DNA of 25,986 nt from an uncultured Bacilli bacterium. GTDB taxonomy: Bacteria > Bacillota_I > Bacilli_A > RF39 > UBA660. Of this stretch, positions 133 to 23,437 are shown in pieces. Made by a program: the position numbers and the translations under genes. The notes beneath the pieces are model-generated. The model was not told the origin of the DNA. It did not search any database and saw only the letters and a program-made list of their open reading frames with translations. Every line of letters starts with the position of its first letter. Within the stretch, counting starts at the first letter, position 1. Location of the stretch: the NCBI GenBank assembly GCA_947593275.1, contig CANQDN010000001.1:1-25986 (forward strand), given 5' to 3'.

Positions 133-173
133 TCTTGCTCATAATGCAATACTCTAATTATTTATGGGCAAGA
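133..173 (+). repeat. Conserved post-stop hairpin, copy A
   Basis: Arms TCTTGCTCATAA (133-144) and TTATGGGCAAGA (162-173) form 12 bp with one T.G pair. Loop TGCAATACTCTAATTAT. Homologous to 16566-16604 and 23395-23437. Confidence 0.85.
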
Positions 174-196
174 GGCCCATCCTTTACGGCCAATAT

Positions 197-223
197 AAAA
201 GCAAAGATTTATTCTTTGTTTTT
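197..223 (+). terminator. Intrinsic terminator after paralog A
   Basis: Stem GCAAAGA/TCTTTGT followed by a T run. Confidence 0.6.
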
Positions 224-280
224 ATTTGGTATTTACTTTAAAATAAAAAAATAATATAATTAGTTTAGGAGTGATGATTT

Positions 281-976
281 TTGAAAGGATATACTATTTT
301 AAAGAGAGTAGTTGCTTATTTAATTGATATTTTATTAGTTACATTTATAAGTTCCGCACTTGCATATATTAGCTTTATTAATCCTAAGTATGATCAATAT
401 ATTGAAGTGTCTGATAAGTATAATGAAGTATTAGAAGAATACTATGATAAGGAAATAACTATGGAAGAATTTACTGAAAAGACGCAGGATCTTAGTTATA
501 GTTTAAATAAAAATGGTTATGTTTATATTATTGGAGATGTAGTTATAGCGTTCTTATATTTTGGAGTTTTTGCTTATTTTACTAATGGTCAGACTTTAGG
601 AAAGAAATTAATGAAGTTAAAGATAGTAAGTAATAAAGAAGGAAAAGAACTTAAAATATATAATTATTTTATTAGATTATTTATTTTAAATGGAGTTATT
701 TTAAGAATTATTACATTTATTGCAATATGGTTTAATAAAGGAACTTATTATTCTATTTATAACTTTGGGTCTAATTTTAGTACCCTTTTAGAGTTAGTAA
801 TATTCTTGATGATTTTATTTAATCAAGAAGGAAGAGGACTTCATGATATCTTAGCGGGTACTAAAGTAATTGATTTAAAAGATACTCAGATAAGTGATGC
901 TAAAGATAGTAAAGAAGAAGTAGAAATAATTAAACCAAAGAAAACTAATAAAAAGAAAAGTGAAGAAGATGAATAA
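281..976 (+). CDS. RDD family membrane protein
   Basis: N-terminal R-x-x-A-Y-L-I-D motif, GQTLGKKLMKLKIV and GRGLHDILAGTKVI motifs, and hydrophobic helices. TTG start after GGAG. Confidence 0.88.
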   Translation: MKGYTILKRVVAYLIDILLVTFISSALAYISFINPKYDQYIEVSDKYNEVLEEYYDKEITMEEFTEKTQDLSYSLNKNGYVYIIGDVVIAFLYFGVFAYFTNGQTLGKKLMKLKIVSNKEGKELKIYNYFIRLFILNGVILRIITFIAIWFNKGTYYSIYNFGSNFSTLLELVIFLMILFNQEGRGLHDILAGTKVIDLKDTQISDAKDSKEEVEIIKPKKTNKKKSEEDE

Positions 977-991
977 TTTTTCATCTTTTTT
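966..991 (+). terminator. Intrinsic terminator after RDD gene
   Basis: Stem AAGATGAA/TTCATCTT followed by Ts. Confidence 0.65.
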
Positions 992-992
992 C

Positions 993-1023
993 TTGACTTT
1001 AACCTTAGGTAATACTTTATAAT
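993..1023 (+). promoter_or_regulatory. MerR-type promoter with 19-bp spacer
   Basis: TTGACT (993-998), 19 bp, TATAAT (1018-1023). The spacer carries the dyad ACCT-T-AGGT and lies directly upstream of a MerR gene. Confidence 0.75.
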
Positions 1024-1043
1024 GGAACTAGAAAGGAGAAGTT

Positions 1044-1685
1044 ATGAAAATAAATGAAGTAGCTAGTATTGTTGGTTTAACGCATAAAAGTATTAGGTAT
1101 TATGAATCAGAGGGACTTTTTAGACCTAAAAGAAATGATAATCAATATAGGGAATATGATCAGGATGATATAAAGAGATTAAGGCTTATCAAGTTTTTAA
1201 GGGAACTAAATATACCTATCTCGGATATTAAAAAGATGCAAAATAAAGAGTTAAAACTAACGGTTGCTATGAAAGAGCAAATTAAAAAGCTAGAAGAAGC
1301 GGAAAAGAATTTTTTAACTATTAAGAATATGTGTAAAGAAATAATTAATAAAGATGAAGATTATGATAGTATTGATGTTACACAATATGAGAAAGTTCTT
1401 TATATTTTAGAAAAGAGGGGATTTACTATTAAAGATCAAGAGAAAGATAATTCTAAAAAAATATTGGGAGCTGTTTTATCGAGTTTAGTTTTTAGTGCTT
1501 TATTTATATTTTTAGCAATTATTATTACTTATTTTGAATTTACAGAGGAAGATACTATACCTTGGGTAATTTATGTATTTTTTATGTTTATTTTAGTGAT
1601 TCCGGTTTTAGGAATATTAATTAATTTAGTGAGAAGAATTAAAGAAATTAAAGGAGGAGAAGAATATGAAGCTCGTAAATATTGA
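1044..1685 (+). CDS. MerR family transcriptional regulator with two C-terminal transmembrane helices
   Basis: MKINEVASIVGLTHKSIRYYESEGLFRPKR...YREY...LRLIKFLRELNIPISDIK is a MerR HTH. Two hydrophobic segments lie near the C terminus. Confidence 0.88.
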   Translation: MKINEVASIVGLTHKSIRYYESEGLFRPKRNDNQYREYDQDDIKRLRLIKFLRELNIPISDIKKMQNKELKLTVAMKEQIKKLEEAEKNFLTIKNMCKEIINKDEDYDSIDVTQYEKVLYILEKRGFTIKDQEKDNSKKILGAVLSSLVFSALFIFLAIIITYFEFTEEDTIPWVIYVFFMFILVIPVLGILINLVRRIKEIKGGEEYEARKY

Positions 1686-1983
1686 TTATTTACCGAATGA
1701 AGAAATAACTGAAGTATTAGGATTAGTTAAAGGGACTATTGTGCAGTCGAAAAATATTGGAAGAGATTTTATGGCTGGAATGAAAACTATTGTTGGTGGA
1801 GAAATTGTCGGATATACAGATATGCTTATTACGGCAAGACAAATAGCAACGAAAAGAATGGTTGATGAAGCAGAAAATTTGGGGGCAGATGCGATAATTA
1901 ATATTCGTTTTGGTTCATCTTCAGTTATGAATGGGGCAGCGGAGGTAATTGCGTACGGAACAGCAGTTAAAATAAAAAAATAA
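1666..1983 (+). CDS. YbjQ/UPF0145 family protein
   Basis: LGLVKGTIVQSKNIGRD...GGEIVGYTDML...A...MVDEAENLGADAIINIRF...AYGTAV is the typical UPF0145 pattern. Overlaps the MerR gene by 20 nt. Confidence 0.9.
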   Translation: MKLVNIDYLPNEEITEVLGLVKGTIVQSKNIGRDFMAGMKTIVGGEIVGYTDMLITARQIATKRMVDEAENLGADAIINIRFGSSSVMNGAAEVIAYGTAVKIKK

Positions 1984-2044
1984 TTATTTATAAGCATAAA
2001 TTAAAATATTTTGGCTAAAAATAACTAAAAAGAGATGATATAAT

Positions 2045-2842
2045 TTGAAAAAGAAAAAAATAGCTTTAGTTTTTATATTTATATCTTTAGTTATGGTTAG
2101 CTATTCGATATTTAAAATTAGTAATTGGTTTATTGATACTAATAAACTTAAGAAAATGGAAGAAAGTTTTAAAAGTGTTTATCAAGAGGTAATAGATTCT
2201 AAGAATTTATATTTAATTAATCCACCGGAAGATGAAAAAGATCAGTATTATGAATATATAAATGAACCTTTTTTACAAGTAGATTTTACTAATTTATTAA
2301 ATGTAAATAAAGATACTGTAGCGTGGATTCAAGTGTTGGGGACAAGTATTGATTATCCGGTTGTTCAGGGGCTTGATAACGAGTATTATTTAGAGCATTC
2401 TTTTGATAAAAGTACAAATATAGCGGGTTGGGTTTTTTCAGATTTTCGCAATAATTTTACTTATCCGAATAATAATAGTATTATTTATGCCCATAAAATG
2501 ACGAATAAAACGATGTTTGGAAGTTTACCGACTCTATTATCAGAGGAATGGCAGGAAGATAAGTCAAAACATTTAATTAAAATATCTACACCGGATAGTA
2601 ATATGATTTATGAAATATTTAGTGTATATATTATTCCGGAAGAGAGTTATTATATTAAAACACAGTTTAAAGATGAAGAAGAATATAAGACTTTTTTAAA
2701 TACTATTAAAGGTAGAAGTATTCATGATTTTAATACAACATTAAATAATGAAGATAAAGTTCTTACGTTGTCTACTTGTCAGGATTATAACGGAAATAGA
2801 TTGGTTGTACATGCCAAGCTAATAAAAAAAGGGAACAGATAG
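2045..2842 (+). CDS. srtB: Class B sortase
   Basis: N-terminal membrane anchor, WIQVLGTSIDYPVVQG-x-DNEYYLEH, IIYAH, catalytic TLSTC and downstream RLVVHAKL. Confidence 0.88.
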   Translation: MKKKKIALVFIFISLVMVSYSIFKISNWFIDTNKLKKMEESFKSVYQEVIDSKNLYLINPPEDEKDQYYEYINEPFLQVDFTNLLNVNKDTVAWIQVLGTSIDYPVVQGLDNEYYLEHSFDKSTNIAGWVFSDFRNNFTYPNNNSIIYAHKMTNKTMFGSLPTLLSEEWQEDKSKHLIKISTPDSNMIYEIFSVYIIPEESYYIKTQFKDEEEYKTFLNTIKGRSIHDFNTTLNNEDKVLTLSTCQDYNGNRLVVHAKLIKKGNR

Positions 2843-2852
2843 TTCCTTTTTT
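2824..2852. terminator. Bidirectional terminator between sortase and convergent gene
   Basis: A-run GGAAC-AGATA-GTTCC T-run. Confidence 0.7.
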
Positions 2853-2869
2853 AAGTGTTTAATTTTTTA

Positions 2870-3610
2870 TTAAGCATTTAATTTTTTGTAATTTATTCCA
2901 AGGCCAAATAAACCGAATAAGCAAGTTGCTGTAAGTAAGCCTAGGTTATCAAAAGTTGCAGGACTTTCTTGTTCTTCAAAGTATTCTTCTAGTTCATTTA
3001 AAGCAAGTTCAACACCGGATGCGATAGCTTGTGATTCGCCATCTTTTTCAATTATCGCGGGATCACTATCACTAGGTACCCAAAGAGTAGGTTTATCTTC
3101 AGATTCTGTATCATTAACAATTTTTGCATCATCAATAATTAAGTGATTTATATCTTCAACACTACTTCCTTGACCAAGTTCTATACCCCCAAAACCATTG
3201 CCAGATACGTCAATTTTTCCTACTAAAGTAACGTTTGAACCATTAACTAAAAGAGCAGCGTTACCTCCAGTAAGTTTTATATCTTTAATAGTCGCGGTTG
3301 TTTTATATACTTGAATTACATAAATACCACCCCATACAGTATTTTCAGAACTATTTTCGTTTCCGAATTTGCCAGTATAACGCATGGTGTGTCCTCCTCC
3401 ATCAATAGTTACAGGACGAGTAATATTAATTTTTTGAGTTGTGTCAATATCTTTTCCTAAAAGAATACTAGTAACATTTTCATCCTTTAAAGCTTCTAAT
3501 AAAGCAGATTCACTAGTTACAGTTCTTGATTCAGCAGCGTGGACGTTTATAAATGGAATGAGCACTATAAGAACAAGTAACAAAGCAAATATTTTATTAG
3601 TTTTTTTCAT
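2870..3610 (-). CDS. Secreted, probably cell-wall-anchored protein with a beta-helix-like adhesive region and SPATF-D sorting signal
   Basis: Signal peptide ending VHA-AE, TVTSESALLEAL...VTIDGGGHT repeats typical of parallel beta-helix adhesins, and C-terminal ESPATFD + hydrophobic stretch + KK. Confidence 0.65.
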   Translation of the reverse strand: MKKTNKIFALLLVLIVLIPFINVHAAESRTVTSESALLEALKDENVTSILLGKDIDTTQKINITRPVTIDGGGHTMRYTGKFGNENSSENTVWGGIYVIQVYKTTATIKDIKLTGGNAALLVNGSNVTLVGKIDVSGNGFGGIELGQGSSVEDINHLIIDDAKIVNDTESEDKPTLWVPSDSDPAIIEKDGESQAIASGVELALNELEEYFEEQESPATFDNLGLLTATCLFGLFGLGINYKKLNA

Positions 3611-3765
3611 CTCTTTGCAATCTCCTTTCTATTTTTATTTTGGTTGTTAGTTTTAAAATTATACTCGAAAATTGTCAATTTTTGTAATAATAATTGCGTT
3701 AAAAGTTTTTATTGTAAAACGCATGTTCATGTGATATGATGGTATTATTCAGGGAGGATAAAATT

Positions 3766-4092
3766 ATGCAAAACAAATTAGAGACTATTTCAAATTTATT
3801 TGAAGGAAAGGAAATAAGAAGTATTTGGGATAGTGAAAAAGAAGAATATTATTTTAGTGTAGTGGATGTTATTGAAGTTTTGACTGATAATGATTATGTT
3901 AAAGCTAGAAATTATTGGAAATGGTTAAAAGGTAAATTAAGTGATGAGGGAAGTCAGTTGGTTAGAAATACTAACCAACTGAAAATGAAAGCCCAAGATG
4001 GAAAATATTATAAAACTGATGCTTTGGATACAAAAAATATATTAAGATTGATTATCCCTAATCTTAAAACTGAAGTGTTAAGTACCAAATGA
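3766..4092 (+). pseudogene. Truncated BRO-N (prophage antirepressor-like) gene
   Basis: LFEGKEIRSIWD...YYFSVVDVIEVLT...ARNYWKWLK...QLKMKAQDGK...TD is BRO-N-like. ATG at 3766 follows GGAGG. The reading decays to IIPNLKTEV and stops where the family normally continues QSIPSPKAEPFKLW. Confidence 0.6.
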
Positions 4093-4165
4093 CATAGATG
4101 TTTTACTATTATTTAGATTACATACTTTGGTATTCTAATATCGAAGTTAATAAAGAGAGTTTAAT

Positions 4166-4189
4166 ATTTTGCAGACGCGTCTGCAAAAT
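4166..4189. repeat. Perfect 24-bp palindrome
   Basis: ATTTTGCAGACGCGTCTGCAAAAT equals its own reverse complement. It is GC-rich relative to its surroundings and sits just upstream of the AAGGAGG RBS of the next gene. Confidence 0.9.
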
Positions 4190-4209
4190 TAAAAAAAGGA
4201 GGAATTAAA

Positions 4210-5229
4210 ATGTTGACAACTGAAGCAAGAGATTTTAAAACCGCTATAAATGAAATAGTATCAAAAATTGAAGAAACACAATTAGCAATATTTCAATCAG
4301 CTAATGCAAATGTTATGGATTTGTATTTTTATATTGGAAAAATTATTGATGATAGAATTAAATGGGGAAATAAGTTTGTAGATGAATTATCCATTGAATT
4401 AAAACTTAAATTTCCTAACTCTAAAGGATATTCTCCTAGAAATCTTCGTAATATGAGAAAATATTATTTGTCTGTTAAAGACGATGAAAAATTAAAAGAA
4501 TACTCTTATAAAATTCCTTGGTCACATAATTCAATAATAATGGATCGGGTTAAGAACAATAATCAAAAAATATGGTATATAAAAGAAACTTATAATAATG
4601 GTTGGAGTTATGATTATTTAGAAATTCAAATAAAGCGAGAAGCTTATAAAAGACAAATTCTCGGAGATAAGCCTAATAACTTCAAATTAACTCTTTTACA
4701 ACCTCAAAGTTTATTGGCAAAAGAAATTATGAAAGATCCTTATATATTTGATGTTGGTGCTCTACGTGAGAATTTTGTAGAAAAAGATATTGAAAATGCG
4801 ATGATAGATAGAATTAAAATGACTTTATTAGAGTTAGGAAATGGATTTAGTTTTATTGCTAATCAATATAGAGTTACAGTTAATGATGAAGAGAATTTTA
4901 TTGACCTGTTATTTTATCATACAAAATTACATTGTTATATTGCAATTGAACTTAAAAATAAAAAATTTATACCAGAATATGCAGGCAAAATGAATTATTA
5001 TTTATCTGCACTAGATGATATGTTAAAAACAGAATTAGATAATCCATCTATAGGTATTATACTTGTCAGAAATAAGAATAAATTAAATGTAGAATATGCA
5101 CTAAGAGATATAAATAAACCAATTGGAGTTAGCTCATATGAATTATCAGAATATTTACCACCTGAAATTTTAAGGGAATTACCAACTGAAGAAGAATTAA
5201 ATTTACATATTGATTTAGAAAATAAATAG
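4210..5229 (+). CDS. YhcG/DUF1016 family PD-(D/E)xK nuclease-domain protein
   Basis: LYFYIGKII, KGYSPRNLRNMRKYY, IPWSHN, IMKDPYIFD, ELGNGFSFIANQY, FIDLLFYHTKLHCYIAIELK and YAGKMNYYL motifs. Confidence 0.92.
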   Translation: MLTTEARDFKTAINEIVSKIEETQLAIFQSANANVMDLYFYIGKIIDDRIKWGNKFVDELSIELKLKFPNSKGYSPRNLRNMRKYYLSVKDDEKLKEYSYKIPWSHNSIIMDRVKNNNQKIWYIKETYNNGWSYDYLEIQIKREAYKRQILGDKPNNFKLTLLQPQSLLAKEIMKDPYIFDVGALRENFVEKDIENAMIDRIKMTLLELGNGFSFIANQYRVTVNDEENFIDLLFYHTKLHCYIAIELKNKKFIPEYAGKMNYYLSALDDMLKTELDNPSIGIILVRNKNKLNVEYALRDINKPIGVSSYELSEYLPPEILRELPTEEELNLHIDLENK

Positions 5230-5297
5230 GTAAATCTATAATTAGTAATCAAAATAATCTTAATTACCAATATTTAGAAGAAACTAAATTAAAAAAT

Positions 5298-5321
5298 AAA
5301 AAAACTCCAATAAAAATGGAG
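5298..5321 (-). terminator. Terminator of the tRNA transcript
   Basis: CTCCA/TGGAG stem with an A run on its left, which is a U tract on the minus strand, just past the tRNA 3' end. Confidence 0.55.
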
Positions 5322-5335
5322 ACTAAATTTCAAAA

Positions 5336-5409
5336 TGGTGCTGAATGACTGAATTGAACAGTCCTCTGAAGCTTACCATGCTTCCGTTCTACCACTAAAC
5401 TAAATCAGC
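5336..5409 (-). tRNA. tRNA-Thr(GGT)
   Basis: The reverse complement folds as a 74-nt cloverleaf: acceptor GCTGATT/ATTCAGC (one mismatch), D arm GTTT/GAAC, anticodon arm GAAGC-ATGGTAA-GCTTC, T arm GACTG-TTCAATT-CAGTC, and encoded ACCA end. Confidence 0.95.
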
Positions 5410-5482
5410 ATATAAAAATTATAGCAATAAACTAGATATAAATCAATATGTATGATATAATTTTAATGAAAGTTGGTGGATT

Positions 5483-6193
5483 ATGGATGTACCTAATCAT
5501 GTAGCAATTATTATGGATGGCAATGGAAGATGGGCTCAAAAGCAAGGTTTAAAACGGAGTGCTGGACATCTTGAGGGCAGTAAAACATTAGAAAAAATTG
5601 CTATACACGCGAAAAAGATGGGGGTTAAAGTTTTAAGTGTTTATGCTTTTTCAACGGACAATTTTAAAAGGGATAAAGAAGAAGTAGATTATTTAATGGA
5701 TTTAATTATTAAGTATTTTAATACTAAATTTGATAAACTAGCTAAAAATGGAATTAAAGTGGTAGTTTCAGGACGAAGGAATAATATCCGGGAAGATGTA
5801 AAACAAGCGATAGAAACTGTTGAAGAAAAGACTAAAGATAATAAAGAAGCTATTTTAAATATTTGTTTTAATTATGGAGGTCAAGAAGAAATAATTGATG
5901 GAGCAATTAGGCTTGCTCAAGATCTAAATAAAGGACTTAAAATAGATAATTTTAAGAGAGAAGATTTTTATAAATACTTATATCATGATTTACCACCAAT
6001 TGATTTACTTATTAGAACGGGTGGAGAATATAGAGTAAGTAACTTTATGTTATATCAAATGAGTTACAGTGAATTTTATTTTACTAATACTTATTTTCCG
6101 GATTTTGATAAGTCAGAATTTAATAAAGCTATATTTACTTTCCAAAATAGAGATAGAAGATTTGGGGGTATAAATGATAAAAAAAGTAGTTAG
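5483..6193 (+). CDS. uppS: Isoprenyl transferase (undecaprenyl diphosphate synthase)
   Basis: PNHVAIIMDGNGRWA, YAFSTDNFKR, NYGGQEEI, IDLLIRTGGEYRVSNFMLYQ and RDRRFGG motifs. Confidence 0.96.
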   Translation: MDVPNHVAIIMDGNGRWAQKQGLKRSAGHLEGSKTLEKIAIHAKKMGVKVLSVYAFSTDNFKRDKEEVDYLMDLIIKYFNTKFDKLAKNGIKVVVSGRRNNIREDVKQAIETVEEKTKDNKEAILNICFNYGGQEEIIDGAIRLAQDLNKGLKIDNFKREDFYKYLYHDLPPIDLLIRTGGEYRVSNFMLYQMSYSEFYFTNTYFPDFDKSEFNKAIFTFQNRDRRFGGINDKKSS

Positions 6194-6629
6194 TTTTTTT
6201 GATAGGCATCGTTTTATTTTTGTTTTAGTTATTTTGTTTTTAGTAAGTTTTATTTTTATTGGGGTAAAAATATTTACATTTTTAAATCATAAGTTTGAAG
6301 CTTTAAGTTGTAAAGATAAGATAAAAGAGACAACATGTATGGTTGGGAATAAAGAGATATTTTTAGAGCCAGAAGAAGAAATTAACAAGCTTTTTAAAGA
6401 ATACGATAAGGAAATTAAGGATTTAAAAGAGCAATATAATTTGCCAGAATTTAATTTTTATACAGCGTATTATTACTATTTAGTCTCGAAGATTGACTAT
6501 CAGATGTATGGAAGAAATGAATCTATTATGGATTATTTATATATCTATATTAATACGTATAATTTAGAAGAATTTTATCAAAAAAATAATGTTTTTTATG
6601 AAATATTTTATCCTTATAAAATAATCTAA
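6174..6629 (+). CDS. Hypothetical single-pass membrane protein
   Basis: 151-aa ORF coupled to uppS (20-nt overlap) with one N-terminal hydrophobic helix and no recognised motif. Confidence 0.65.
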   Translation: MIKKVVSFFDRHRFIFVLVILFLVSFIFIGVKIFTFLNHKFEALSCKDKIKETTCMVGNKEIFLEPEEEINKLFKEYDKEIKDLKEQYNLPEFNFYTAYYYYLVSKIDYQMYGRNESIMDYLYIYINTYNLEEFYQKNNVFYEIFYPYKII

Positions 6630-6700
6630 AAAAACTTTTTACTTTTAATATAATTTGTAGTATAATACTTTTAGAATTTTTTAGTGAAAGGAACTTTTTT

Positions 6701-8941: not shown

Positions 8942-8997
8942 TTAAAATAAAGGCTTTTGTTATAAAGCTTTTTTTAATGTTTAAATAATATATATTA

Positions 8998-14939: not shown

Positions 14940-14991
14940 ATATATTTCACCATAATTATTTTCTCAAACATAGGAAAAATATCATATATCT

Positions 14992-15043
14992 ATTATGAAA
15001 TAGCGAACTTTATATTGACAAGAAGAGTTCGCTATTTTATAAT
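14992..15043. promoter_or_regulatory. Back-to-back promoters with a 12-bp inverted-repeat operator
   Basis: Plus strand TTGACA (15015)-17-TATAAT (15038). Minus strand TTGTCA-18-CATAAT. A perfect inverted repeat AAATAGCGAACT (14998-15009) / AGTTCGCTATTT (15026-15037) brackets both -35 boxes. Confidence 0.8.
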
Positions 15044-15098
15044 ATAAATATAAATTAGAAAAATTTAAGATATTTGATATTAGAAAGTAGGATAGTTA

Positions 15099-16565
15099 AT
15101 GAAATATGAGAAAATAAATAAAAATTATACTAAAACTATAATAATAAGTTTTATAGTAATAATTATAATAGGGAGTGTATTAGTATTAAATATTACAAAA
15201 GCTAAATATAAAACTACTGTTAGTGTACCAATAGTTAGTGGTACTATTAAGTATAGTGGGGGTTATGATTTTAAGATAATGGCTTTATATAAACAAAATG
15301 AAGAAAAGAATTGCACTGATGACGAATGCTATGATGAAATAGGACAAATGCCTAGTGGTGATTATGAAATAAATACATCTAAAAGTTATTGTACATTAGA
15401 TGGTGAGAATAAAGAATATGATAAATTAGCTACAATTAATGGAATACATTCAATTAAAAACTTAAAGAAAAATGAAAAATGTTATTTATATTTTGATAAA
15501 GAAGTAAAAGTAGGGGATACAATAGTTGCAAATTCTAGTGTTATAGATGAAGCCCCAACTTTTAGTAAAACATCTTGCTTACAAGGTTGTGAAGTTAGTG
15601 AAAATGGTTTATATAAAACTGAAGATGATTTTGGAGATAGTTATTACTTCAGAGGAACAGTAGAGAATAACTGGGTCAAATTTGGACAAGATAAAAGCAA
15701 TAATGATATATACTGGAGAATTATTAGGATTAATGGAGATGGAACAATAAGATTAATATATGCTGGTGTCACTAAAGATAATGGAGATCCTCCTGATCTT
15801 ACGGGATCACAAACAAATGCATTAACAGGTCAAAAATTTAATTCAAGTTATAATGATAATATGTACGTTGGTTATCAATTTGAAAGTGGGGATAAACGTG
15901 GTATTAAATCACCAAGTAATGCATATACACAATTAATGAGTTGGTTTGGAGAAAATTTAATCGAAGAATGGAACAGTGGGAATGGTCAAATAGATCCAAG
16001 TGCCGGATTTTGTGGAGATAGATCAAGCTTAACAAGTCAATCTTCATGGAAAGAAGATATGCAAGAAAGTGGAGGAACAGGTAATGCTGTAGTTACTTAT
16101 TATGGATCAAGATTAAGATTGGAAAATAGTAATAAGCAACCAACATTAAAATGTAGTACAACTAGCCATAAAAATAATGATTATTATACATTTGAAAAAT
16201 CCACTGGGATAGAGTCAACCATAAATGGAAAAATATATTCTGGGACTCAAAGTTTAGAATATCCAATAGGCCTTATAACAGCCGATGAAGTAGCTTTTGC
16301 TGGCGCAGTATCTGGAAAAGCTAATTCAGGATATTGGTTAAATACAGGTGAGAATTATTGGACAATGTCTCCGTATGGATTTGGTAGTAGTGATGGGGCT
16401 TATGTTTACCGTGTAAATTCGAGTGGTTCCATCTATAATTACACTGTTAACCATGCGATTGGTTTACGTCCAGTAATAAACCTCAAGTCTGATACCGAAT
16501 TCACATTTGAACATCCAGATCAAGCAGATAAAGGTACTTCAACAAATCCATATATTGTATCTTAA
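15099..16565 (+). CDS. Membrane-anchored surface protein, paralog B, with C-type-lectin-like C terminus
   Basis: N-terminal TM helix, several Cys pairs, YYFRGTVENNWVKFG, IYWRIIRINGDGTIRLIY, YPIGLITADEV and NYWTMSP...GLRPVINLK...GTSTNPY. Closely similar to 21952-23394. The fold assignment is an inference from motifs. Confidence 0.8.
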   Translation: MKYEKINKNYTKTIIISFIVIIIIGSVLVLNITKAKYKTTVSVPIVSGTIKYSGGYDFKIMALYKQNEEKNCTDDECYDEIGQMPSGDYEINTSKSYCTLDGENKEYDKLATINGIHSIKNLKKNEKCYLYFDKEVKVGDTIVANSSVIDEAPTFSKTSCLQGCEVSENGLYKTEDDFGDSYYFRGTVENNWVKFGQDKSNNDIYWRIIRINGDGTIRLIYAGVTKDNGDPPDLTGSQTNALTGQKFNSSYNDNMYVGYQFESGDKRGIKSPSNAYTQLMSWFGENLIEEWNSGNGQIDPSAGFCGDRSSLTSQSSWKEDMQESGGTGNAVVTYYGSRLRLENSNKQPTLKCSTTSHKNNDYYTFEKSTGIESTINGKIYSGTQSLEYPIGLITADEVAFAGAVSGKANSGYWLNTGENYWTMSPYGFGSSDGAYVYRVNSSGSIYNYTVNHAIGLRPVINLKSDTEFTFEHPDQADKGTSTNPYIVS

Positions 16566-16604
16566 TCTTGCCAATGCTGCTTTCTAACTTATTCATTGGC
16601 AAGA
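16566..16604 (+). repeat. Conserved post-stop hairpin, copy B
   Basis: Perfect 11-bp arms TCTTGCCAATG / CATTGGCAAGA with loop CTGCTTTCTAACTTATT, starting at the first base after the stop codon. Confidence 0.9.
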
Positions 16605-16618
16605 TAAAACTTCATTGT

Positions 16619-16643
16619 GAGAGAATTTTTTTCTCTCTTTTTT
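16619..16643 (+). terminator. Intrinsic terminator after paralog B
   Basis: GAGAGAA/TTCTCTC stem followed by a T run. Confidence 0.7.
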
Positions 16644-16664
16644 ATTAAAAAAATAGCCTTTTGG

Positions 16665-16937: not shown

Positions 16938-16996
16938 CCTAATACATTGTATGAAAAAAATAAAAATTTGAATACTAATAAAGGTGACTAATTAAA

Positions 16997-18949: not shown

Positions 18950-18999
18950 GGTTTTTCTGTTATAATACTGCTAGACTTTTTTATAAAGGAGGTGCAGTT

Positions 19000-19164
19000 A
19001 TGGCTAAAAATGAAAATAGAAATTATGTAACTATGAAGTGTACTGTATGTGGTGAGGAACTTAGATGTACAAGTAAGAATAAAAAGAATACTCCAGATCG
19101 TTTAGAAGTTAAAAAATATTGTAAAAAATGTCATAAACATCAAATTGTTAAAGAAAAGAAGTAA
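19000..19164 (+). CDS. rpmG: 50S ribosomal protein L33 (zinc-binding C+ form)
   Basis: Not in the ORF track. Manual translation MAKNENRNYVTMKCTVCGEELRCTSKNKKNTPDRLEVKKYCKKCHKHQIVKEKK*, with RBS AAGGAGG upstream. Confidence 0.95.
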   Translation: MAKNENRNYVTMKCTVCGEELRCTSKNKKNTPDRLEVKKYCKKCHKHQIVKEKK

Positions 19165-19172
19165 AATAGGAT

Positions 19173-19343
19173 ATGAAAAAGAAGAAATTTAAATTATATA
19201 AGACTACTGGTTATTCCCCAATTATGGCAGCTTTTGGAACTAAAAAGATAGATAGTAAATTACCTAATATGTATTCAAATCCTGTAGTAATTAATAATAA
19301 GAAAGTTAAAAGTAATACTAGTAGGAAAAGAAATAAAAGATAG
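19173..19343 (+). CDS. Small basic hypothetical protein (56 aa)
   Basis: MKKKKFKLYKTTGYSPIMAAFGTKKIDSKLPNMYSNPVVINNKKVKSNTSRKRNKR*. The ATG lies 8 nt after the rpmG stop, after TAGGA. Confidence 0.55.
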   Translation: MKKKKFKLYKTTGYSPIMAAFGTKKIDSKLPNMYSNPVVINNKKVKSNTSRKRNKR

Positions 19344-19353
19344 GAGTATACAT

Positions 19354-19515
19354 ATGATTAGGGGAACACATAGATTACAAAAAGTTAATTTTAAATCTCC
19401 GATTATTGCAATTATGAGTAATAAAAAAGAAGAAATTAGACGGGAAGATAAGAAACCCAAAACAAGAATGCGGAAAAAAAGATATGGAATATTTACAAAG
19501 AAAGTGGAGGTGTAA
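19354..19515 (+). CDS. Small basic hypothetical protein (53 aa)
   Basis: MIRGTHRLQKVNFKSPIIAIMSNKKEEIRREDKKPKTRMRKKRYGIFTKKVEV*. Its RBS AGGAG overlaps the previous stop, and the ORF ends 3 nt before the efp start. Confidence 0.6.
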   Translation: MIRGTHRLQKVNFKSPIIAIMSNKKEEIRREDKKPKTRMRKKRYGIFTKKVEV

Positions 19516-19518
19516 GAA

Positions 19519-20079
19519 GTGAATATAAATATAAATGATATTAAAAATGGTATGACGATTATTATGGATAATAATCTATATCAAATTGTAGAGTTTCAAC
19601 ATGTTAAACCGGGTAAAGGATCTGCTTTTGTTAGAATGAAATTAAAGAATTTAAGAACGGGATCTATTACAGAAGATACATATAATACTAATATTAAGAT
19701 CACAAAAGCTCATATAGATAGAATGCCAATGCAATATTTATATGCAGCAGGAGATAATTATGTATTTATGAATAATGAAACTTATGAACAAATTGAAATA
19801 CCAGTTAAAACTTTAGGAGATCAAGTTAAGTTTATTAAAGAAGGTTTAGATATTACTGTTGATTATTATGAGGGAGAAATACTTGGTATTACTCTTCCAG
19901 AGAAAGTAGAATATGAGATTGTTGAAACTGAACCAGCAGTAAGAGGAAATACAACAAATAATGCTCAAAAAGATGCGAAGATTGAGACTGGTTATGTTGT
20001 AAAAGTTCCTTTATTTATAAATGAGGGAGAAAAGATAATTATTTCTACTCGTGATGGAAAATATTCAAGTAGGGCATAG
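19519..20079 (+). CDS. efp: Elongation factor P
   Basis: FQHVKPGKGSAFVRMKLKNLRTG, EPAVRGNT and ETGYVVKVPLFINEGEKIII-STRDG-Y motifs. Confidence 0.97.
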   Translation: MNININDIKNGMTIIMDNNLYQIVEFQHVKPGKGSAFVRMKLKNLRTGSITEDTYNTNIKITKAHIDRMPMQYLYAAGDNYVFMNNETYEQIEIPVKTLGDQVKFIKEGLDITVDYYEGEILGITLPEKVEYEIVETEPAVRGNTTNNAQKDAKIETGYVVKVPLFINEGEKIIISTRDGKYSSRA

Positions 20080-20112
20080 GCTCTATTTTTTTTGGAAATA
20101 AAAAAAGACTGG

Positions 20113-21207
20113 TTAGTCTTTATAGAGATTTTTTTCTTTTTTGTAGGATGTTATAGCCGAATTATCTTTTATTAAATTAGATATGGAATCTCCTTTATTT
20201 AGGTTATCAATTATTTTAGCAAGATAAGTAGAACAATCAGCAGCATAGAACCATTCTTTATTTAAAATATCTTCGGGGATATAGGTAAGATTAGTGGAAT
20301 AAACTGCATCAAATAAGTTATTTTGATAAGCTTTATCAAATACTTCACAACCTGTTGTAAATAGGGCAAAGGTGGTAAAGAAGAAGATTTTTTTAGCACC
20401 TCTTTTTTTAAGTTCACCTGCAACATCAAGCATAGAAGAGCCACTGGCGAGCATATCATCTACAACGATTATAGATTTTCCTTTAACACTGCTACCTAAA
20501 TATTCGTGGGCGACTATGGGGTTTGAGCCATTGACAATTTTTGAGATATCACGTCTTTTATAAAACATTCCAACATCAACTCTTAATATGTCTGCGAGCC
20601 ATCTTGCGCGATCCATAGCTCCAGTATCTGGGCTTACTACAAGAGTTTTAGTGGGATTGAACTCTTCATTTTTTAAGAATAATTTTAACATATCATTGGT
20701 TGCATAAAAATTGTCAAATGGAAGAGTGGGGATAGCGTTTTGAACGTTGGGATCATGAGCATCAAAGGTAATTATACCACTTACGCCGAGATTTTTTAGT
20801 TCTTGTAAAGCAGCCGCACAGTCGAGAGATTCACGAGATTTGCGACGATGTTGTCTTGAAGAATATAAGAAAGGCATGACAACTTTAATACTTTTCGCGT
20901 GACCCATGATGGCTAGAATAGTTCTTTTAATGTCTTGCAAGTGTTCATCGGGACTCATGTGATGAATAAAATCATACATTTTGTAGGTAATACTGTAGTT
21001 ATGGGTATCACTTATAATGTAGACATCTTTGTTGCGAATACTTTCTAAAATATTTACTTTTCCTTCACCATCATTAAAACGAGATATTTTGATGGGAACG
21101 AGAAAATTTTTTTCGGTTTTACGAATTTTTTTAATTTCATTGTTAATTTTTAAGCCTAATTCTTCACAATTATTCATGACAATTAAGCATAAATCATCTT
21201 TTTCCAT
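20113..21207 (-). CDS. prs: Ribose-phosphate pyrophosphokinase
   Basis: RFNDGEGKV, PFLYSSRQHRR, TFDAHD, VVSPDTGA, YKRRD and IIVVDDMLASGSSM motifs. Confidence 0.94.
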   Translation of the reverse strand: MEKDDLCLIVMNNCEELGLKINNEIKKIRKTEKNFLVPIKISRFNDGEGKVNILESIRNKDVYIISDTHNYSITYKMYDFIHHMSPDEHLQDIKRTILAIMGHAKSIKVVMPFLYSSRQHRRKSRESLDCAAALQELKNLGVSGIITFDAHDPNVQNAIPTLPFDNFYATNDMLKLFLKNEEFNPTKTLVVSPDTGAMDRARWLADILRVDVGMFYKRRDISKIVNGSNPIVAHEYLGSSVKGKSIIVVDDMLASGSSMLDVAGELKKRGAKKIFFFTTFALFTTGCEVFDKAYQNNLFDAVYSTNLTYIPEDILNKEWFYAADCSTYLAKIIDNLNKGDSISNLIKDNSAITSYKKEKNLYKD

Positions 21208-21328
21208 ATAAACTTTTACTCCTTATAGTTTTATTTTAACATATTTTAGTTAGATATAAGAATAAGAAAACACTAACTTTACATAAGAAATTAAAAAAGA
21301 TTCTAATTTTTATTTAGAATGCTTTAAA

Positions 21329-21615
21329 TTTAGTTGTTTAGAATGCTTTTGGGATAGGGTTTTCTTTCATCAGTACGATATAAAAGATAGTCAATACTAG
21401 TTTTATAATAATCGGCAAGTTTATGTAATGTTTCAATAGGAATGTTGGTATCTTCTCTTTCGTAATGGGAATATCCTCTTTGACTAATATTTAAAATTTG
21501 AGCAATTTCGACTTCTAGTAGGTCATGATCTTCTCTTATTTCTTTTAATCTATTCATTTTACTTTCTCCATTTTTTACTTTAGTTGTTTAGAATGCTTTT
21601 GGGATAGGGTTTTCT
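21329..21615. repeat. 37-bp exact direct repeat (21329-21365 and 21579-21615) forming the 3' ends of both XRE genes
   Basis: TTTAGTTGTTTAGAATGCTTTTGGGATAGGGTTTTCT occurs twice, 250 bp apart. A 13-bp partial copy TTTAGAATGCTTT lies at 21313-21325. Confidence 0.92.
21330..21557 (-). CDS. XRE-family HTH regulator
   Basis: MNRLKEIREDHDL...EIAQILNISQRGYSHYE...IPIETLHKLADYYKTSIDYLL pattern. Confidence 0.9.
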   Translation of the reverse strand: MNRLKEIREDHDLLEVEIAQILNISQRGYSHYEREDTNIPIETLHKLADYYKTSIDYLLYRTDERKPYPKSILNN

Positions 21616-21825
21616 AGTGTCAGTTAGGCCTAATATATAGTCACTGCTTATGTTGTAAAATTTGGCTAATTTAATTAAGGCATCAATGGGTATTTGTCTT
21701 TTTCCAATTTCATAATAGCTATAGGCACTTTGGGTGATGTTAAGAAGATTAGCGATATCTTCTTGTTTTAAGTCTTTATCCTCTCTTAATCCTTTTAATC
21801 GCTCTAAAATTATGTCGTTATTCAT
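21580..21825 (-). CDS. XRE-family HTH regulator
   Basis: ERLKGLREDKDLKQEDIANLLNITQSAYSYYEIGKRQIPIDALIKLAKFYNISSDYILG pattern. Confidence 0.92.
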   Translation of the reverse strand: MNNDIILERLKGLREDKDLKQEDIANLLNITQSAYSYYEIGKRQIPIDALIKLAKFYNISSDYILGLTDTRKPYPKSILNN

Positions 21826-21872
21826 AAAAACACCTCTTACTTTCTTTTCTTATATTTTAATTTAAATCAAAT

Positions 21873-21933
21873 TGTTATATTGACTTTTATGACGAACTGT
21901 TATAAAATAATTTATATATAACATATTGTTATA
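21873..21933 (+). promoter_or_regulatory. Promoter of paralog C with repeated TGTTATA operator half-sites
   Basis: TTGACT (21880)-17-TAAAAT (21903). TGTTATA occurs at 21873, 21898 and 21927. Palindrome TATAACA-TAT-TGTTATA at 21917-21933. Confidence 0.65.
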
Positions 21934-21951
21934 AAAAAGGATGTGGAAAAG

Positions 21952-23394
21952 TTGAAGTATGAAAAATTAAATAAAAATTATACTAAAATTATTATAATGG
22001 GGTTAATAGTAATAATTATAATAGGTAGTGTATTGGTATTAAATATTACAAAATCAAAGTATAAGACTACTGTTAGTGTGCCTATTGTTAATGGTACTAT
22101 TAAGTATAGTGGTGGTTATGATTTTAAGATTATGGCTTTATATCAGCAGAAAGAGAATCAAGCTTGTGATGATGATAATTGCTATGAAAGTATAGATAGA
22201 ATGCCATATTCTGGATATGTTATAAATACAGATAAAAGCTATTGTAGTATTAATGGCAATGAAAGGGATACAGAAGCAAAATTATATACTGAAAATGGTA
22301 AACATATTATTGAAAATCTTGCTAAAAATGAAAAATGTTATTTGTATTTTGATAGAAGGGCAGAAAGTGTAATAATTGCTAATTCAAATTTTATAGAGGG
22401 AATTCCTGATTTTACAAAAACAACTTGTGATGCTATATGTGCCGATAGTAACTCAGCTTTATATAAAATAGAAGATGATTTTGGGGATAGTTATTACTTT
22501 AGAGGAACAGTGGAAAATAATTGGGTAAAGTTTGGAAAAATGGGAAGCGATGGAGCAGATATTTATTGGCGAATCATTCGAATAAATGGAGATGGAACAA
22601 TCAGACTCATATATTCTGGGAATGATAATCCTGCAATAACTGGAGCACAAACAAATGCACTAAGTGGATCATTTAATGGAACATATGGCGATAACATGTA
22701 TGCAGGTTATGAGTATCAAAAAGATATAGCTCATGGAAGAGGCACAAAAAGTTCTGCCTTAACTACATTAGAAAAATGGTTTGAAACTAATTTAGTAGAT
22801 GAATGGAATAATGGGGATGGAAGAATAGATATAAATGCCGGTTTTTGCAATGACAGATCAAATTCAACAAATAGTAATATAACATGGCAAGAAAATTTGC
22901 CTGATACTGGAGGTACTGGAAATACATATACATATTATGGAGGATTTTTAAGAATAGAAAGAAAAAAGGACCCTATGTTGAAATGTAGCACGAATGCTCA
23001 TAAAAATGATGATTATTTTACATATGAAAAGTCAATAGGTATAAAACAGAATGGAACAGTTAGTACGATTATAAAGGGAACTCAAAGTTTAAAGTATCCT
23101 ATAGGAATTATTACTGCTGATGAAGTAGTTTTTGCAGGAGGAGTATGGGGTTCAGTGAATTCAGGATTTTGGTTACATACTGATCAAAATTATTGGACAA
23201 TGACTCCTGATTATTTTTCTCCTTCAGTTCAATTTGTGTTTAGTGTCGTGCAGAGTGGTGGTTTTACTAATCTTAATGTAAGTAATTCTAGTGGTTTTCG
23301 CCCCGTAATTAATTTAAAAGCTAATACTAAATTTACTTTTGAACATGAGAATCAGCCAAAGGGTACTTCATCTAATCCCTATATAGTATCATAA
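21952..23394 (+). CDS. Membrane-anchored surface protein, paralog C, with C-type-lectin-like C terminus
   Basis: Same block structure as 15099-16565. The TTG at 21952 aligns with the Met of paralog B and is better spaced from the AAGGA than the GTG at 21943 used by the ORF track. Confidence 0.8.
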   Translation: MKYEKLNKNYTKIIIMGLIVIIIIGSVLVLNITKSKYKTTVSVPIVNGTIKYSGGYDFKIMALYQQKENQACDDDNCYESIDRMPYSGYVINTDKSYCSINGNERDTEAKLYTENGKHIIENLAKNEKCYLYFDRRAESVIIANSNFIEGIPDFTKTTCDAICADSNSALYKIEDDFGDSYYFRGTVENNWVKFGKMGSDGADIYWRIIRINGDGTIRLIYSGNDNPAITGAQTNALSGSFNGTYGDNMYAGYEYQKDIAHGRGTKSSALTTLEKWFETNLVDEWNNGDGRIDINAGFCNDRSNSTNSNITWQENLPDTGGTGNTYTYYGGFLRIERKKDPMLKCSTNAHKNDDYFTYEKSIGIKQNGTVSTIIKGTQSLKYPIGIITADEVVFAGGVWGSVNSGFWLHTDQNYWTMTPDYFSPSVQFVFSVVQSGGFTNLNVSNSSGFRPVINLKANTKFTFEHENQPKGTSSNPYIVS

Positions 23395-23437
23395 TCTTGC
23401 TTACATTGCTTTTCTAACTTATTATATGTAGGCAAGA
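23395..23437 (+). repeat. Conserved post-stop hairpin, copy C
   Basis: Arms TCTTGCTTACAT / ATGTAGGCAAGA (12 bp, one T.G pair) with loop TGCTTTTCTAACTTATTAT, starting at the first base after the stop codon. Confidence 0.88.

What the first reader, a model, noticed from the sequence alone, without database searches (positions are those of the whole stretch)
133..23437. Conserved, covarying ~40-nt hairpin placed directly after the stop codon of all three surface-protein paralogs
Seen in sequence: copies at 133-173, 16566-16604 and 23395-23437 share an invariant outer stem (TCTTGC...GCAAGA). The inner stems differ but stay paired (TCATAA/TTATGG, CAATG/CATTG, TTACAT/ATGTAG). The 17-19 nt loop keeps TGC and TCTAA(C)TTAT. 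Stem position 7 is C-G in one copy and T.G in two, a wobble that only works on the plus strand. Each copy is followed by its own separate, unrelated intrinsic terminator, so the hairpin is not the terminator. Copies B and C also share a linker AAAACTTCATTG (16606-16617, 23442-23453). Inference: this is a family-specific cis element under selection for both structure and loop sequence. Candidates are a target-recognition hairpin like those downstream of DGR variable regions, a recombination or nicking site for single-stranded gene exchange, or a 3' UTR RNA motif bound by a protein. I do not recognise it as a known Rfam element.
Basis: partly seen in the sequence, partly recalled or inferred. 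Interest (0 to 1): 0.85.

Follow-up and report, generated by a model that had tools for sequence, protein, structure and literature searches.

The report
Small-RNA-like module behind surface-protein genes
The hairpin is real and under selection as RNA: it heads a small-RNA-like unit (hairpin, unpaired stretch, terminator) attached behind most genes of a huge variable surface-protein family, and the same unit also exists as a free-standing small-RNA gene, so it is probably a new regulatory RNA and not a recognition site for the diversity-generating retroelement (DGR).

Summary
Observation confirmed and extended. The TCTTGC…GCAAGA hairpin lies at all three stated sites (3 hits against 0.01 expected). 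The 1.1-Mb genome has about 40 copies. All 35 assessable copies start 0-12 nt after the stop codon of one paralog family, and 39 of 44 genomes of the genus have the element. Covariation is strong: 9 of 12 pairs show double changes, and no shuffle out of 500 matches the observed values. All G·U wobbles lie on the gene-sense strand.

The family is a DGR-target-type (DUF6273) family, and the genome has a DGR with three template repeats. The hairpin is nevertheless not the known DGR target hairpin. Stem, loop and distance from the variable region (VR) all differ, three of the six cleanest targets lack it, and the window's three genes are not current targets.

Decisive find: hairpin + unpaired AAAYTYCAT segment + terminator also occurs as a single-copy gene with its own promoter downstream of rpe, in 24 of 44 genomes. 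The 3' UTR element is therefore a copy of a small-RNA (sRNA) module.

Best reading (about 45%): a 3'-UTR-derived sRNA whose 5' hairpin blocks RNase J, and whose unpaired segment may pair with family start codons (supportive but inconsistent evidence). No RNA data were available. It is not in Rfam.

The parts
2..127 (+). 3' end of family paralog A (partial; stop TAA at 125-127), ending ...GIRPVINLK...GISTDPYVIK*
   Evidence: tblastn match to the family C-terminus
133..173 (+). Hairpin HP1, copy A: 12-bp stem with a U.G wobble and a 17-nt loop
   Evidence: -13.5 kcal/mol, z -5.7; CM R1 hit E 2e-12
174..191 (+). Possible small second hairpin GGCC-CATCCTTTAC-GGCC. The motif recurs in this subtype and in other species, but the minimum-energy fold does not predict it.
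   Evidence: same motif after HP1 in C95, G055, G002, G018, G022; one search leaves it unpaired
189..230 (+). A/U-rich terminator-like hairpin plus T-run after copy A
   Evidence: fold of 125-236
15099..16565 (+). Family paralog B (488 aa; N-terminal membrane anchor, weak DUF6273-like C-terminus). Its VR-equivalent region (about 16362-16475) is not a current match to any template repeat (TR) found.
   Evidence: (20 A and 19 non-A mismatches to TR1)
16566..16604 (+). Hairpin HP1, copy B: 11-bp stem, 17-nt loop
   Evidence: (-13.3 kcal/mol, z -3.9)
16605..16618 (+). Unpaired linker TAAAACTTCATTGT, holding the conserved AAAYTYCAT core (candidate seed)
   Evidence: unpaired in the MFE and centroid folds; invariant columns AAA.T.CA
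16619..16643 (+). Intrinsic terminator GAGAGAA-TTTTT-TTCTCTC plus T-run
21943..23394 (+). Family paralog C (483 aa). Its VR-equivalent region (about 23235-23307) is not a current TR match.
   Evidence: 12 A and 17 non-A mismatches
23395..23437 (+). Hairpin HP1, copy C: 12-bp stem with a U.G wobble and a 19-nt loop
   Evidence: (-13.5 kcal/mol, z -5.5)
23438..23452 (+). Unpaired linker ATAAAAAACTTCATT with the conserved AAAYTYCAT core
23453..23477 (+). Intrinsic terminator GCAAGGAA-CTCT-TTCCTTGC plus T-run

Best explanation
The hairpin (HP1) is the 5' stem-loop of a small-RNA-like module transcribed as the 3' UTR of the family mRNAs. The module has three parts: stem-loop, a 13-15 nt unpaired segment with the core AAAYUYCAU, and an intrinsic terminator. 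It is homologous to a single-copy small-RNA gene with its own promoter, located downstream of rpe in the same genus.

Shown here: it is a conserved, covarying, sense-strand (RNA-type) structure with this architecture, and it has a free-standing homologue.

Inferred mechanism:
1. After the last ribosome leaves the stop codon, 5'-to-3' decay of the mRNA by RNase J stops at HP1.
2. This leaves a stable RNA of about 80 nt (hairpin, unpaired segment, terminator), as described for RsaG in Staphylococcus aureus.
3. The hairpin thus sets and protects the 5' end of the small RNA.
4. The unpaired segment is the candidate seed and may pair with the start-codon region of family mRNAs, in cis or between paralogs.
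For: - Placement and copy number: about 40 copies in G000, and all 35 assessable ones start 0-12 nt after a family stop codon.
- Genus distribution: 39 of 44 genomes have hits, 1-41 copies each. Outside the genus only marginal hits were found.
- Covariation within the genome: 98% of cells pair, against 33-44% when the partner is slid.
- Covariation across species: 36 sequences, 9 of 12 pairs with double changes, 0 of 500 shuffles on all five measures. The outer stem also covaries: CATGC/GCATG, CCTGC/GCGGG, TCTGC/GCAGA.
- Strand: 34 G.U cells and no mismatches in pairs 3-12, all on the gene-sense strand. The sense fold is stronger than the antisense fold.
- Conservation: the module has a median identity of 79% against 64-67% for the coding sequence, and is the more conserved of the two in 89% of paralog pairs.
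- Free-standing gene: TTGACA-16/17-TATAAT with a TG extension (12/12 match), then hairpin, AATGTTTCAAATTTCATTAG and terminator, syntenic after rpe. It occurs exactly once per genome in 24 of 44 genomes. Model R1, built only from 3' UTR copies, finds it.
- Collinear alignment of free-standing and 3' UTR modules, with invariant AAA.T.CA in the unpaired segment.
- Enzymes: two RNase J genes and RNase Y are present.
- Precedent: 5'-to-3' exonuclease blockage by a 3' hairpin generating an sRNA in a Gram-positive bacterium (review PMC9438474).
- Seed idea: the best of 773 translation-initiation regions (TIRs) in G000 for the free-standing RNA's segment is a family gene, C118 (-16.3 kcal/mol, or -20.4 with the genus consensus). 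Family genes take 6-7 of the top 20 where 1 is expected; reversed controls give 0-1.
- In 8 of the 9 species sampled the duplex begins within 3 nt of the start codon; G013 gives 16 contiguous bp at -18.3 kcal/mol.
Against: - No RNA data. No RNA run was listed, so neither a processed small RNA nor its 5' end has been seen.
- The seed-target idea fails a covariation test. G024 has linker AAATTCCAT about 20 times but family starts ATGAGGATAGAG about 17 times. G002 and the commonest G000 class (TTGAAATAT start) do not pair in cis either.
- Family TIRs are related by descent, so the enrichment statistics overstate the case.
- In the clade with few copies, 3' UTR hairpins are followed by a different linker (TATAATACA..). 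HP1 function therefore cannot depend on the AAAYTYCAT segment.
- G000's own free-standing gene lacks HP1.
- No internal promoter was found in front of the 3' UTR copies.
- A conserved GC in the loop suggests a bound partner, which the RNase J-block model does not need.
Confidence: 0.45

Rival explanations
1. HP1 is a 3' UTR element that acts only in cis on its own mRNA. It could be a binding site for a genus-specific RNA-binding protein, or a second barrier to 3'-to-5' exonucleases once the terminator is clipped off at the unpaired linker (for example by RNase Y). It would tune mRNA stability or translation of the family without producing a trans-acting small RNA.
For: - Same structural evidence as the best explanation: RNA-type covariation and sense-only wobbles.
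- Invariant unpaired GC at loop positions 2-3 across the genus suggests sequence-specific recognition.
- HP1 occurs with different linkers in different clades.
- RNase Y is present.
Against: - The same module exists as a free-standing gene with its own promoter and no upstream ORF. That is hard to explain for a purely cis-acting mRNA element.
- The terminator already provides a 3' barrier.
- No candidate binding protein has been identified.
Confidence: 0.27
2. HP1 is the DGR target-recognition hairpin or cruciform that directs mutagenic retrohoming of template-repeat cDNA into the variable regions of these genes.
For: - The genome has a complete DGR: RT, bAvd, a MutS-I-like protein and a DUF6273 target.
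- There are three template repeats, and at least six family genes differ from a template repeat almost only at adenines.
- Three of those six (C5, C111, C89) carry HP1.
- Inverted repeats downstream of VRs are typical of DGR targets (PMC3240598).
Against: - Guo et al. 2011 define a 7-10 bp GC-rich stem, a 4-nt GRNA loop (adding as little as 2 nt cut activity to near background) and a position 4-34 bp after the VR. HP1 has a 10-12 bp stem of mixed composition, a 12-20 nt loop (by the 10-11 bp core stem) and lies about 60-110 nt after the VR-equivalent end.
- The cassette-proximal and cleanest targets (C118, C9, C110) lack HP1.
- Most HP1-bearing genes, including all three in the window, have as many non-A as A mismatches to every TR.
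- The wobbles work on one strand only.
- A free-standing copy sits in a promoter-driven RNA gene far from any VR.
Confidence: 0.05
3. HP1 and its flank are a DNA-level homology or recombination signal shared by all paralogs, comparable to the conserved 3' repeat of Neisseria pilin loci. It would promote gene conversion or cassette exchange among family members.
For: - Both flanks of the paralogs are more conserved than the coding sequence: the 5' promoter/UTR and the 3' module.
- Identical modules follow genes whose bodies are only 55-65% identical.
- The family is highly variable.
Against: - Compensatory changes keep the stem paired in many different sequence versions. Homology-based recombination does not require that.
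- G.U wobbles occur on one strand only.
- The free-standing copy is a transcribed unit with its own promoter and terminator.
- No recombinase, HUH or integrase gene was found in the window or at the RT locus.
- No joints were seen in the loop (weak data).
Confidence: 0.08
4. HP1 has no function of its own. It is a leftover spread by gene duplication and homogenised by gene conversion, or a small mobile repeat (REP/MITE-like).
For: Many copies are identical or nearly so within the genome (14 copies of one version), as expected after recent duplication.
Against: - It persists across 39 of 44 species with the stem maintained through double substitutions at 9 of 12 positions.
- Its position relative to the stop codon is fixed at 0-12 nt.
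- It is not scattered through other intergenic regions; all 35 assessable copies are family-linked.
- No terminal repeats or target duplications were noticed.
Confidence: 0.05

Closest known systems
3' UTR-derived small RNAs, especially RsaG of Staphylococcus aureus (review PMC9438474) and the autoregulatory OppZ/CarZ of Vibrio cholerae (PMC7398697)
   Same: - The unit starts at or just after the stop codon.
- It shares the mRNA's intrinsic terminator.
- It has a conserved unpaired segment between a 5' structure and the terminator.
- RsaG is generated when a stable hairpin blocks 5'-to-3' exonucleolytic decay.
- OppZ/CarZ pair with translation-initiation regions of their own operon.
   Different: - No transcript evidence here.
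- About 40 paralogous copies per genome, attached to one expanded gene family.
- A free-standing homologue with its own promoter exists in the same genus.
- No Hfq was found.
- Complementarity to targets is inconsistent across species.
DGR target hairpin/cruciform downstream of the VR (Guo et al. 2011, PMC3240598)
   Same: An inverted repeat downstream of a DGR-target-type gene. The stem structure is conserved while its sequence varies, and the loop has conserved bases.
   Different: - Stem 10-12 bp of mixed composition, against 7-10 bp GC-rich.
- Loop 12-20 nt (by the 10-11 bp core stem), against 4 nt GRNA.
- About 60-110 nt from the VR-equivalent end, against 4-34 bp.
- Not correlated with TR-matching VRs.
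- RNA-type wobbles on one strand.
icaR-type 5'-3' UTR interaction (own knowledge: Ruiz de los Mozos et al. 2013, S. aureus)
   Same: A 3' UTR sequence complementary to the mRNA's own 5' region. In G000 the HP1 loop has 12 nt complementary to the common 5' UTR, and the linker pairs over the start codon in some subfamilies.
   Different: The complementarity is not conserved in other species (z about 0). This was tested here and rejected as a general mechanism.
Conserved 3' repeat of Neisseria pilE/pilS loci (own knowledge)
   Same: A conserved non-coding sequence at the 3' end of every member of a variable surface-protein family.
   Different: That element acts through DNA homology in recombination. 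HP1 shows RNA-type compensatory evolution and also exists as a separate transcription unit.

Membership tests
DGR target-recognition hairpin (Guo et al. 2011) | 7-10 bp GC-rich stem | tested here: not met
   Core stem of 10-11 bp (plus an optional outer T-A pair) with only about 5 G-C pairs, the rest A-U or G.U (criterion)
DGR target-recognition hairpin (Guo et al. 2011) | 4-nt loop with GRNA consensus; small loop size is critical | tested here: not met
   Loops of 12-20 nt (by the 10-11 bp core stem) starting (U)GCU. In BPP-1, adding as little as 2 nt cut activity to near background
DGR target-recognition hairpin (Guo et al. 2011) | Located 4-34 bp downstream of the VR | tested here: not met
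   From the VR-equivalent end to the stop codon is mostly 69-97 nt; the hairpin follows 0-12 nt later
DGR target-recognition hairpin (Guo et al. 2011) | Accompanies VRs that match a template repeat with adenine-specific differences | tested here: not met
   Of the six cleanest TR/VR pairs, three carry HP1 (C5, C111, C89) and three do not (C118, C9, C110). Most HP1 genes have 13-43 non-A mismatches
3' UTR-derived small RNA | Lies between the stop codon and the mRNA's own intrinsic terminator | tested here: met
   Gap of 0-12 nt after the stop; terminator 13-15 nt after the hairpin
3' UTR-derived small RNA | Sequence and structure conserved beyond the neighbouring coding sequence | tested here: met
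   Median identity 79% against 64-67%; covariation across about 30 species
3' UTR-derived small RNA | A stable processed or separately transcribed RNA species is detectable | not testable with these tools
   No RNA run was listed; only DNA contigs were available
3' UTR-derived small RNA | Unpaired seed complementary to target mRNAs, with co-variation | tested here: inconclusive
   Enriched for family start regions in G000 and several species, but G024 and G002 do not fit
3' UTR-derived small RNA | Biogenesis nuclease present (RNase J or Y in Gram-positive lineages) | tested here: met
   Two RNase J genes (580.7 and 416.7 bits) and RNase Y (706.5 bits), all above the curated cut-offs
Intrinsic (Rho-independent) terminator | G+C-rich hairpin followed directly by a U-run | tested here: not met
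   HP1 is followed by AAUAUAAAACUUCAUUG, not a U-run. A separate terminator follows
Any Rfam family | Match to a curated covariance model | tested here: not met
   The only hit in the window is a tRNA. Nothing credible at E <= 1 on the free-standing genes
REP/MITE-like dispersed repeat | Copies scattered in intergenic regions irrespective of the neighbouring gene | tested here: not met
   All 35 assessable copies follow a family stop codon

The most novel reading that the evidence does not exclude
Each expressed member of this hypervariable surface-protein family releases from its 3' UTR a small RNA whose unpaired segment pairs with the start-codon region of sister paralogs. A free-standing master copy next to rpe would do the same. 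The family would then be wired into an RNA-based cross-repression network, a bacterial analogue of allelic exclusion or hierarchical expression for dozens of DGR-type surface proteins. The module would have been copied from a core small-RNA gene and amplified together with the family.
Probability: 0.15. Interest if true: 0.85.

Novelty: new variant of a known kind. Interest (0 to 1): 0.6.

Why it matters
If correct, this is an undescribed structured RNA family absent from Rfam, with hundreds of copies across a genus of uncultured, small-genome gut Bacilli. It is tied to a gene family that takes up about 7% of the genome and includes DGR targets.

It would be one of few 3'-UTR small-RNA systems in a Gram-positive-type lineage. 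To my knowledge it would also be the first case where the module is multiplied along with a paralog family and has a free-standing homologue, which gives a natural experiment on how 3' UTR small RNAs arise.

It also matters as a negative result for DGR biology. A conspicuous conserved hairpin downstream of DGR-type targets is not automatically the retrohoming signal.

Tried and rejected
1. DGR target hairpin. Rejected on stem, loop, distance and lack of association with TR-matching VRs.

2. Loop-to-5' UTR kissing. In G000 the commonest loop has 12 nt (TTTCTAACTTAT) complementary to the common 5' UTR (ATAAGTTAGAAA), with z about -2. In G006, G024, G018, G021, G020 and G053 z is about 0, and the type-B UTR / type-IV loop pair shows no compensation. 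Rejected as a conserved mechanism.

3. Linker as antisense to the gene's own start codon.
- It holds for some G000 subfamilies (9-10 bp at the start codon for the C5, C19, C94, C46, C8, C10, C32 and C42 genes) and for G006.
- It fails for the commonest G000 class, for G024 and for G002.
- Kept only as a partial, unproven trans-targeting idea.

4. Stop-codon readthrough, SECIS-like element or frameshift signal. The stops are TAA or TAG, and the gap of 0-12 nt is not in a fixed frame.

5. Antisense mini-ORF starting at the linker's ATGAAG. It would be 9-10 codons with no properly spaced ribosome-binding site and no promoter (read).

6. Attenuator-type alternative pairing between HP1 arms and the terminator. 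Partial similarity exists only in the CAAGGA-type terminators and not in the GAGAGA or GGAAGA types; MFE and centroid folds show independent hairpins.

7. Internal promoter in the last codons. None was called.

8. Read evidence. No RNA run was listed. DNA runs are short contigs with cross-mapping paralogs, so they say nothing about junctions or A-specific variation.

9. Integron attC-like site. The genes are dispersed among housekeeping genes, not in cassette arrays, and no integrase was found in the window.

Full report
**1. The observation**

The pattern TCTTGC-N25-35-GCAAGA occurs exactly three times in the window, at 133-173, 16566-16604 and 23395-23437. About 0.01 hits are expected, and none of 100 shuffles reached three. 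Each copy begins 0-5 nt after the stop codon of a paralogous gene.

As RNA the three hairpins fold at -13.3 to -13.5 kcal/mol, with z from -3.9 to -5.7. The antisense strands of copies A and C are weaker, at -10.3 and -9.2 kcal/mol. Rfam has nothing at these sites.

**2. Scale**

The window comes from a 1.135-Mb, 27.7% G+C, 133-contig assembly that is 86.5% complete. It is an uncultured gut Bacilli / 'Tenericutes'-like organism whose sequence is held in rabbit gut metagenome runs.

- The paralog family has about 55-65 members (67 tblastn hits).
- The core of the hairpin is CTTGC / variable 5-6 bp inner stem / loop starting (T)GC(T) / GCAAG.
- It occurs at 40 sites in 19 sequence versions; the covariance model finds 41.
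- All 35 sites that can be assessed follow a family stop codon, with a gap of 0-12 nt. The other five are at contig edges.
- Of 49 family 3' ends, 34 carry the hairpin, 14 do not and one is cut off.

**3. Structure is under selection, on the RNA-sense strand**

Among the 18 distinct versions in this genome, 98% of cells pair, against 33-44% when the partner is slid. Five of the six inner positions show double changes.

A covariance model built from these versions (R1) finds the element in 39 of 44 genomes of the genus, at 1-41 copies each. In about 78 genomes from 57 other genera of the same family there are only marginal single hits.

In a 36-sequence alignment covering about 30 species:
- 9 of 12 pairs show changes on both sides;
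- none of 500 shuffles reaches the observed value on any of the five measures;
- the slid controls pair at 29-48%;
- the 'invariant' outer stem also covaries (CATGC/GCATG, CCTGC/GCGGG, TCTGC/GCAGA).

All 34 G.U cells lie on the gene-sense strand, and pairs 3-12 contain no mismatch. On the other strand those cells would be C.A mismatches. The non-coding module (hairpin plus 45 nt) is more conserved than the coding sequence in front of it: median identity 79% against 64-67%, higher in 89% of paralog pairs.

**4. The DGR connection is real, but the hairpin is not the DGR signal**

The genome has one reverse transcriptase, in a cassette with bAvd, a MutS-domain-I protein and a family member with a DUF6273-type C-terminus. 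The template repeats lie elsewhere: two in tandem on contig C118 and one on C41.

Six family genes differ from a template repeat almost only at template adenines. Written as adenine/other mismatches they are C118 17/0, C5 12/2, C110 17/2, C111 19/4, C9 19/5 and C89 20/7. Three of these six carry the hairpin and three do not. Those without it include the cassette gene (C9) and the gene next to the template repeats (C118).

The three window genes have as many non-adenine as adenine mismatches (19, 17 and 16). They are therefore not current targets of any template repeat found.

Guo et al. 2011 define the DGR target hairpin as a DNA structure with a 7-10 bp GC-rich stem and a 4-nt GRNA loop, located 4-34 bp after the VR; lengthening the loop by as little as 2 nt cut activity to near background (PMC3240598). 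The present element has a 10-12 bp mixed stem, a loop of 12-20 nt (by the 10-11 bp core stem), and lies roughly 60-110 nt after the VR-equivalent end. It fails all three structural criteria.

**5. The decisive clue**

Three hits of the model are not behind a family gene. They lie downstream of ribulose-phosphate 3-epimerase, rpe. Reading them shows a complete small transcription unit:
- a consensus promoter, TTGACA, 16-17 nt, TATAAT with a TG extension (12 of 12 matches);
- a leader of 20-35 nt;
- the hairpin;
- an invariant unpaired AATGTTTCAAATTTCATTAG;
- a terminator.

A strict pattern finds exactly one such gene per genome in 24 of 44 genomes. G000 has it too, after its own rpe. There a different short 5' hairpin replaces HP1, but the same TTTCAAATTTCA segment and a terminator are present.

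There is a clean split:
- 17 genomes whose free-standing gene carries the HP1-type hairpin have 1-8 hits of the model;
- 7 genomes whose free-standing gene has another 5' hairpin have 24-41 hits, nearly all behind family genes.

This split is probably confounded with phylogeny. Free-standing and 3' UTR modules align collinearly, and the unpaired segment holds the most invariant columns, AAA.T.CA. Neither version matches Rfam.

**6. Mechanism**

The architecture is a 5' stem-loop, an unpaired conserved segment and a terminator. In copies B and C this is the predicted minimum-energy and centroid fold. It is the architecture of bacterial small RNAs, and of 3'-UTR-derived ones in particular (PMC9438474).

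In Gram-positive-type organisms that lack RNase E, one documented route to such RNAs is a stable hairpin that stops 5'-to-3' decay by RNase J1; the example is RsaG, cited. This genome has two RNase J genes and RNase Y, and no Hfq or Rho was found. A hairpin whose 5' arm lies within the footprint of the terminating ribosome fits that route.

I therefore propose, as inference, that HP1 sets and protects the 5' end of a 3'-UTR-derived RNA of about 80 nt.

**7. What might it target?**

- The complement of the free-standing RNA's unpaired segment is the start of family genes (ATG-AAA/GAA-TTT-GAA-AC).
- In G000 the best partner among 773 start regions is the C118 DGR-target gene, at -16.3 kcal/mol, or -20.4 with the genus-consensus segment.
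- Family genes take 6-7 of the top 20 places where about one is expected. Reversed controls give 0-1.
- In 8 of the 9 species sampled the best duplex begins within 3 nt of the start codon; G013 gives 16 contiguous bp.
- The 3' UTR linkers also favour family start regions. 29% pair at or below -9 kcal/mol, against 1-9% of shuffled and 3-6% of other genes' start regions, and family genes take 5-9 of the top 20.

Against this:
- paralogs are not independent observations;
- the commonest G000 class does not pair in cis;
- G024 (linker AAATTCCAT, starts ATGAGGATAGAG) and G002 do not fit.

I treat target pairing as a lead, not a result.

**8. Other ideas tested**

A loop-to-5' UTR interaction holds only in G000: a 12-nt match with z about -2, against z about 0 in other species. 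Readthrough or SECIS-like signals, an antisense mini-ORF, attenuator-type alternative pairing, an internal promoter and an attC-like site were considered and set aside; see the 'tried and rejected' field. Read data gave nothing usable.

**9. Verdict**

The DGR-hairpin and recombination candidates do not.

| Claim | My estimate |
|---|---|
| It is an RNA-level element, part of a small-RNA-like module with a free-standing homologue | about 0.8 |
| The RNase J-blocking / 3'-UTR-derived sRNA mechanism is correct | about 0.45 |
| It cross-regulates the family | about 0.15 |

It is a new RNA family of a known general kind, in an unusual multiplied arrangement.

Noticed in passing
G000 contigs C9:13363-16704 (L001), C118:~2165-2290 and ~2470-2580, C41:~4185-4264: A complete DGR (RT 368 aa, bAvd 115 aa, MutS-domain-I protein 139 aa, DUF6273-type target) whose template repeats are not in the cassette. 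Two tandem TRs follow a family gene on C118 and a third lies on C41. At least six dispersed family genes look like targets.
   Followed up: partly
G000 C33:11266-11335 (L114:2164-2236); L059:1476-1590; L116-L127: A conserved single-copy small-RNA gene with its own promoter downstream of rpe, with an invariant unpaired AATGTTTCAAATTTCATTAG. It is found once per genome in 24 of 44 genomes of the genus and is not in Rfam.
   Followed up: partly
G000 C118:1850-1960, C105:~180-290; L005, L003, L010 just after the family stop codon: DGR-proximal family genes carry a different conserved 3' element: a hairpin spanning the stop codon (CATACGTAG..TAA..CTACGTATG), then ..CTTTCAAGGAG..GTGG..GGTTCAAAATGACTCTTCATTT. 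This could be the true DGR-related downstream signal or the start of the TR RNA.
   Followed up: no
Upstream of most family genes in other G000 contigs (e.g. C27, C10, C45, C54) and in L003, L099, L102, L004; module B in the window (about 14990-15098) has only a degenerate version: The 5' flanks of most paralogs are conserved: TTGAC..-N17-TATAAT followed at once by a palindromic box TTAG(A/G)AATTTCTAA, also in other species. It looks like an operator for the XRE-type regulators encoded divergently, or a 5' UTR hairpin.
   Followed up: partly
whole genome G000: The family (about 55-65 genes of about 1.45 kb) takes up roughly 7% of a 1.1-Mb genome. Many contigs end inside family genes or their 3' modules, so the family is a main cause of assembly fragmentation. 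All 24 sister genomes sampled also have 10-60 matches.
   Followed up: partly
G000 C20:36-77 and C20:266-1879: One of the two RNase J genes lies directly downstream of a family 3' module (hairpin at C20:36-77). This is probably coincidence.
   Followed up: no
L114:2240-2455 (G000 C33, downstream of the free-standing sRNA): A further promoter-like site and a structured-looking non-coding stretch of about 130 nt (GAACTTAGAGTGTTAGGGCTTGATGTC...) lie before the next gene. It may be another leader or small RNA.
   Followed up: no
window 5339-5409 (-): A tRNA gene, the only Rfam hit in the window (60.2 bits).
   Followed up: no
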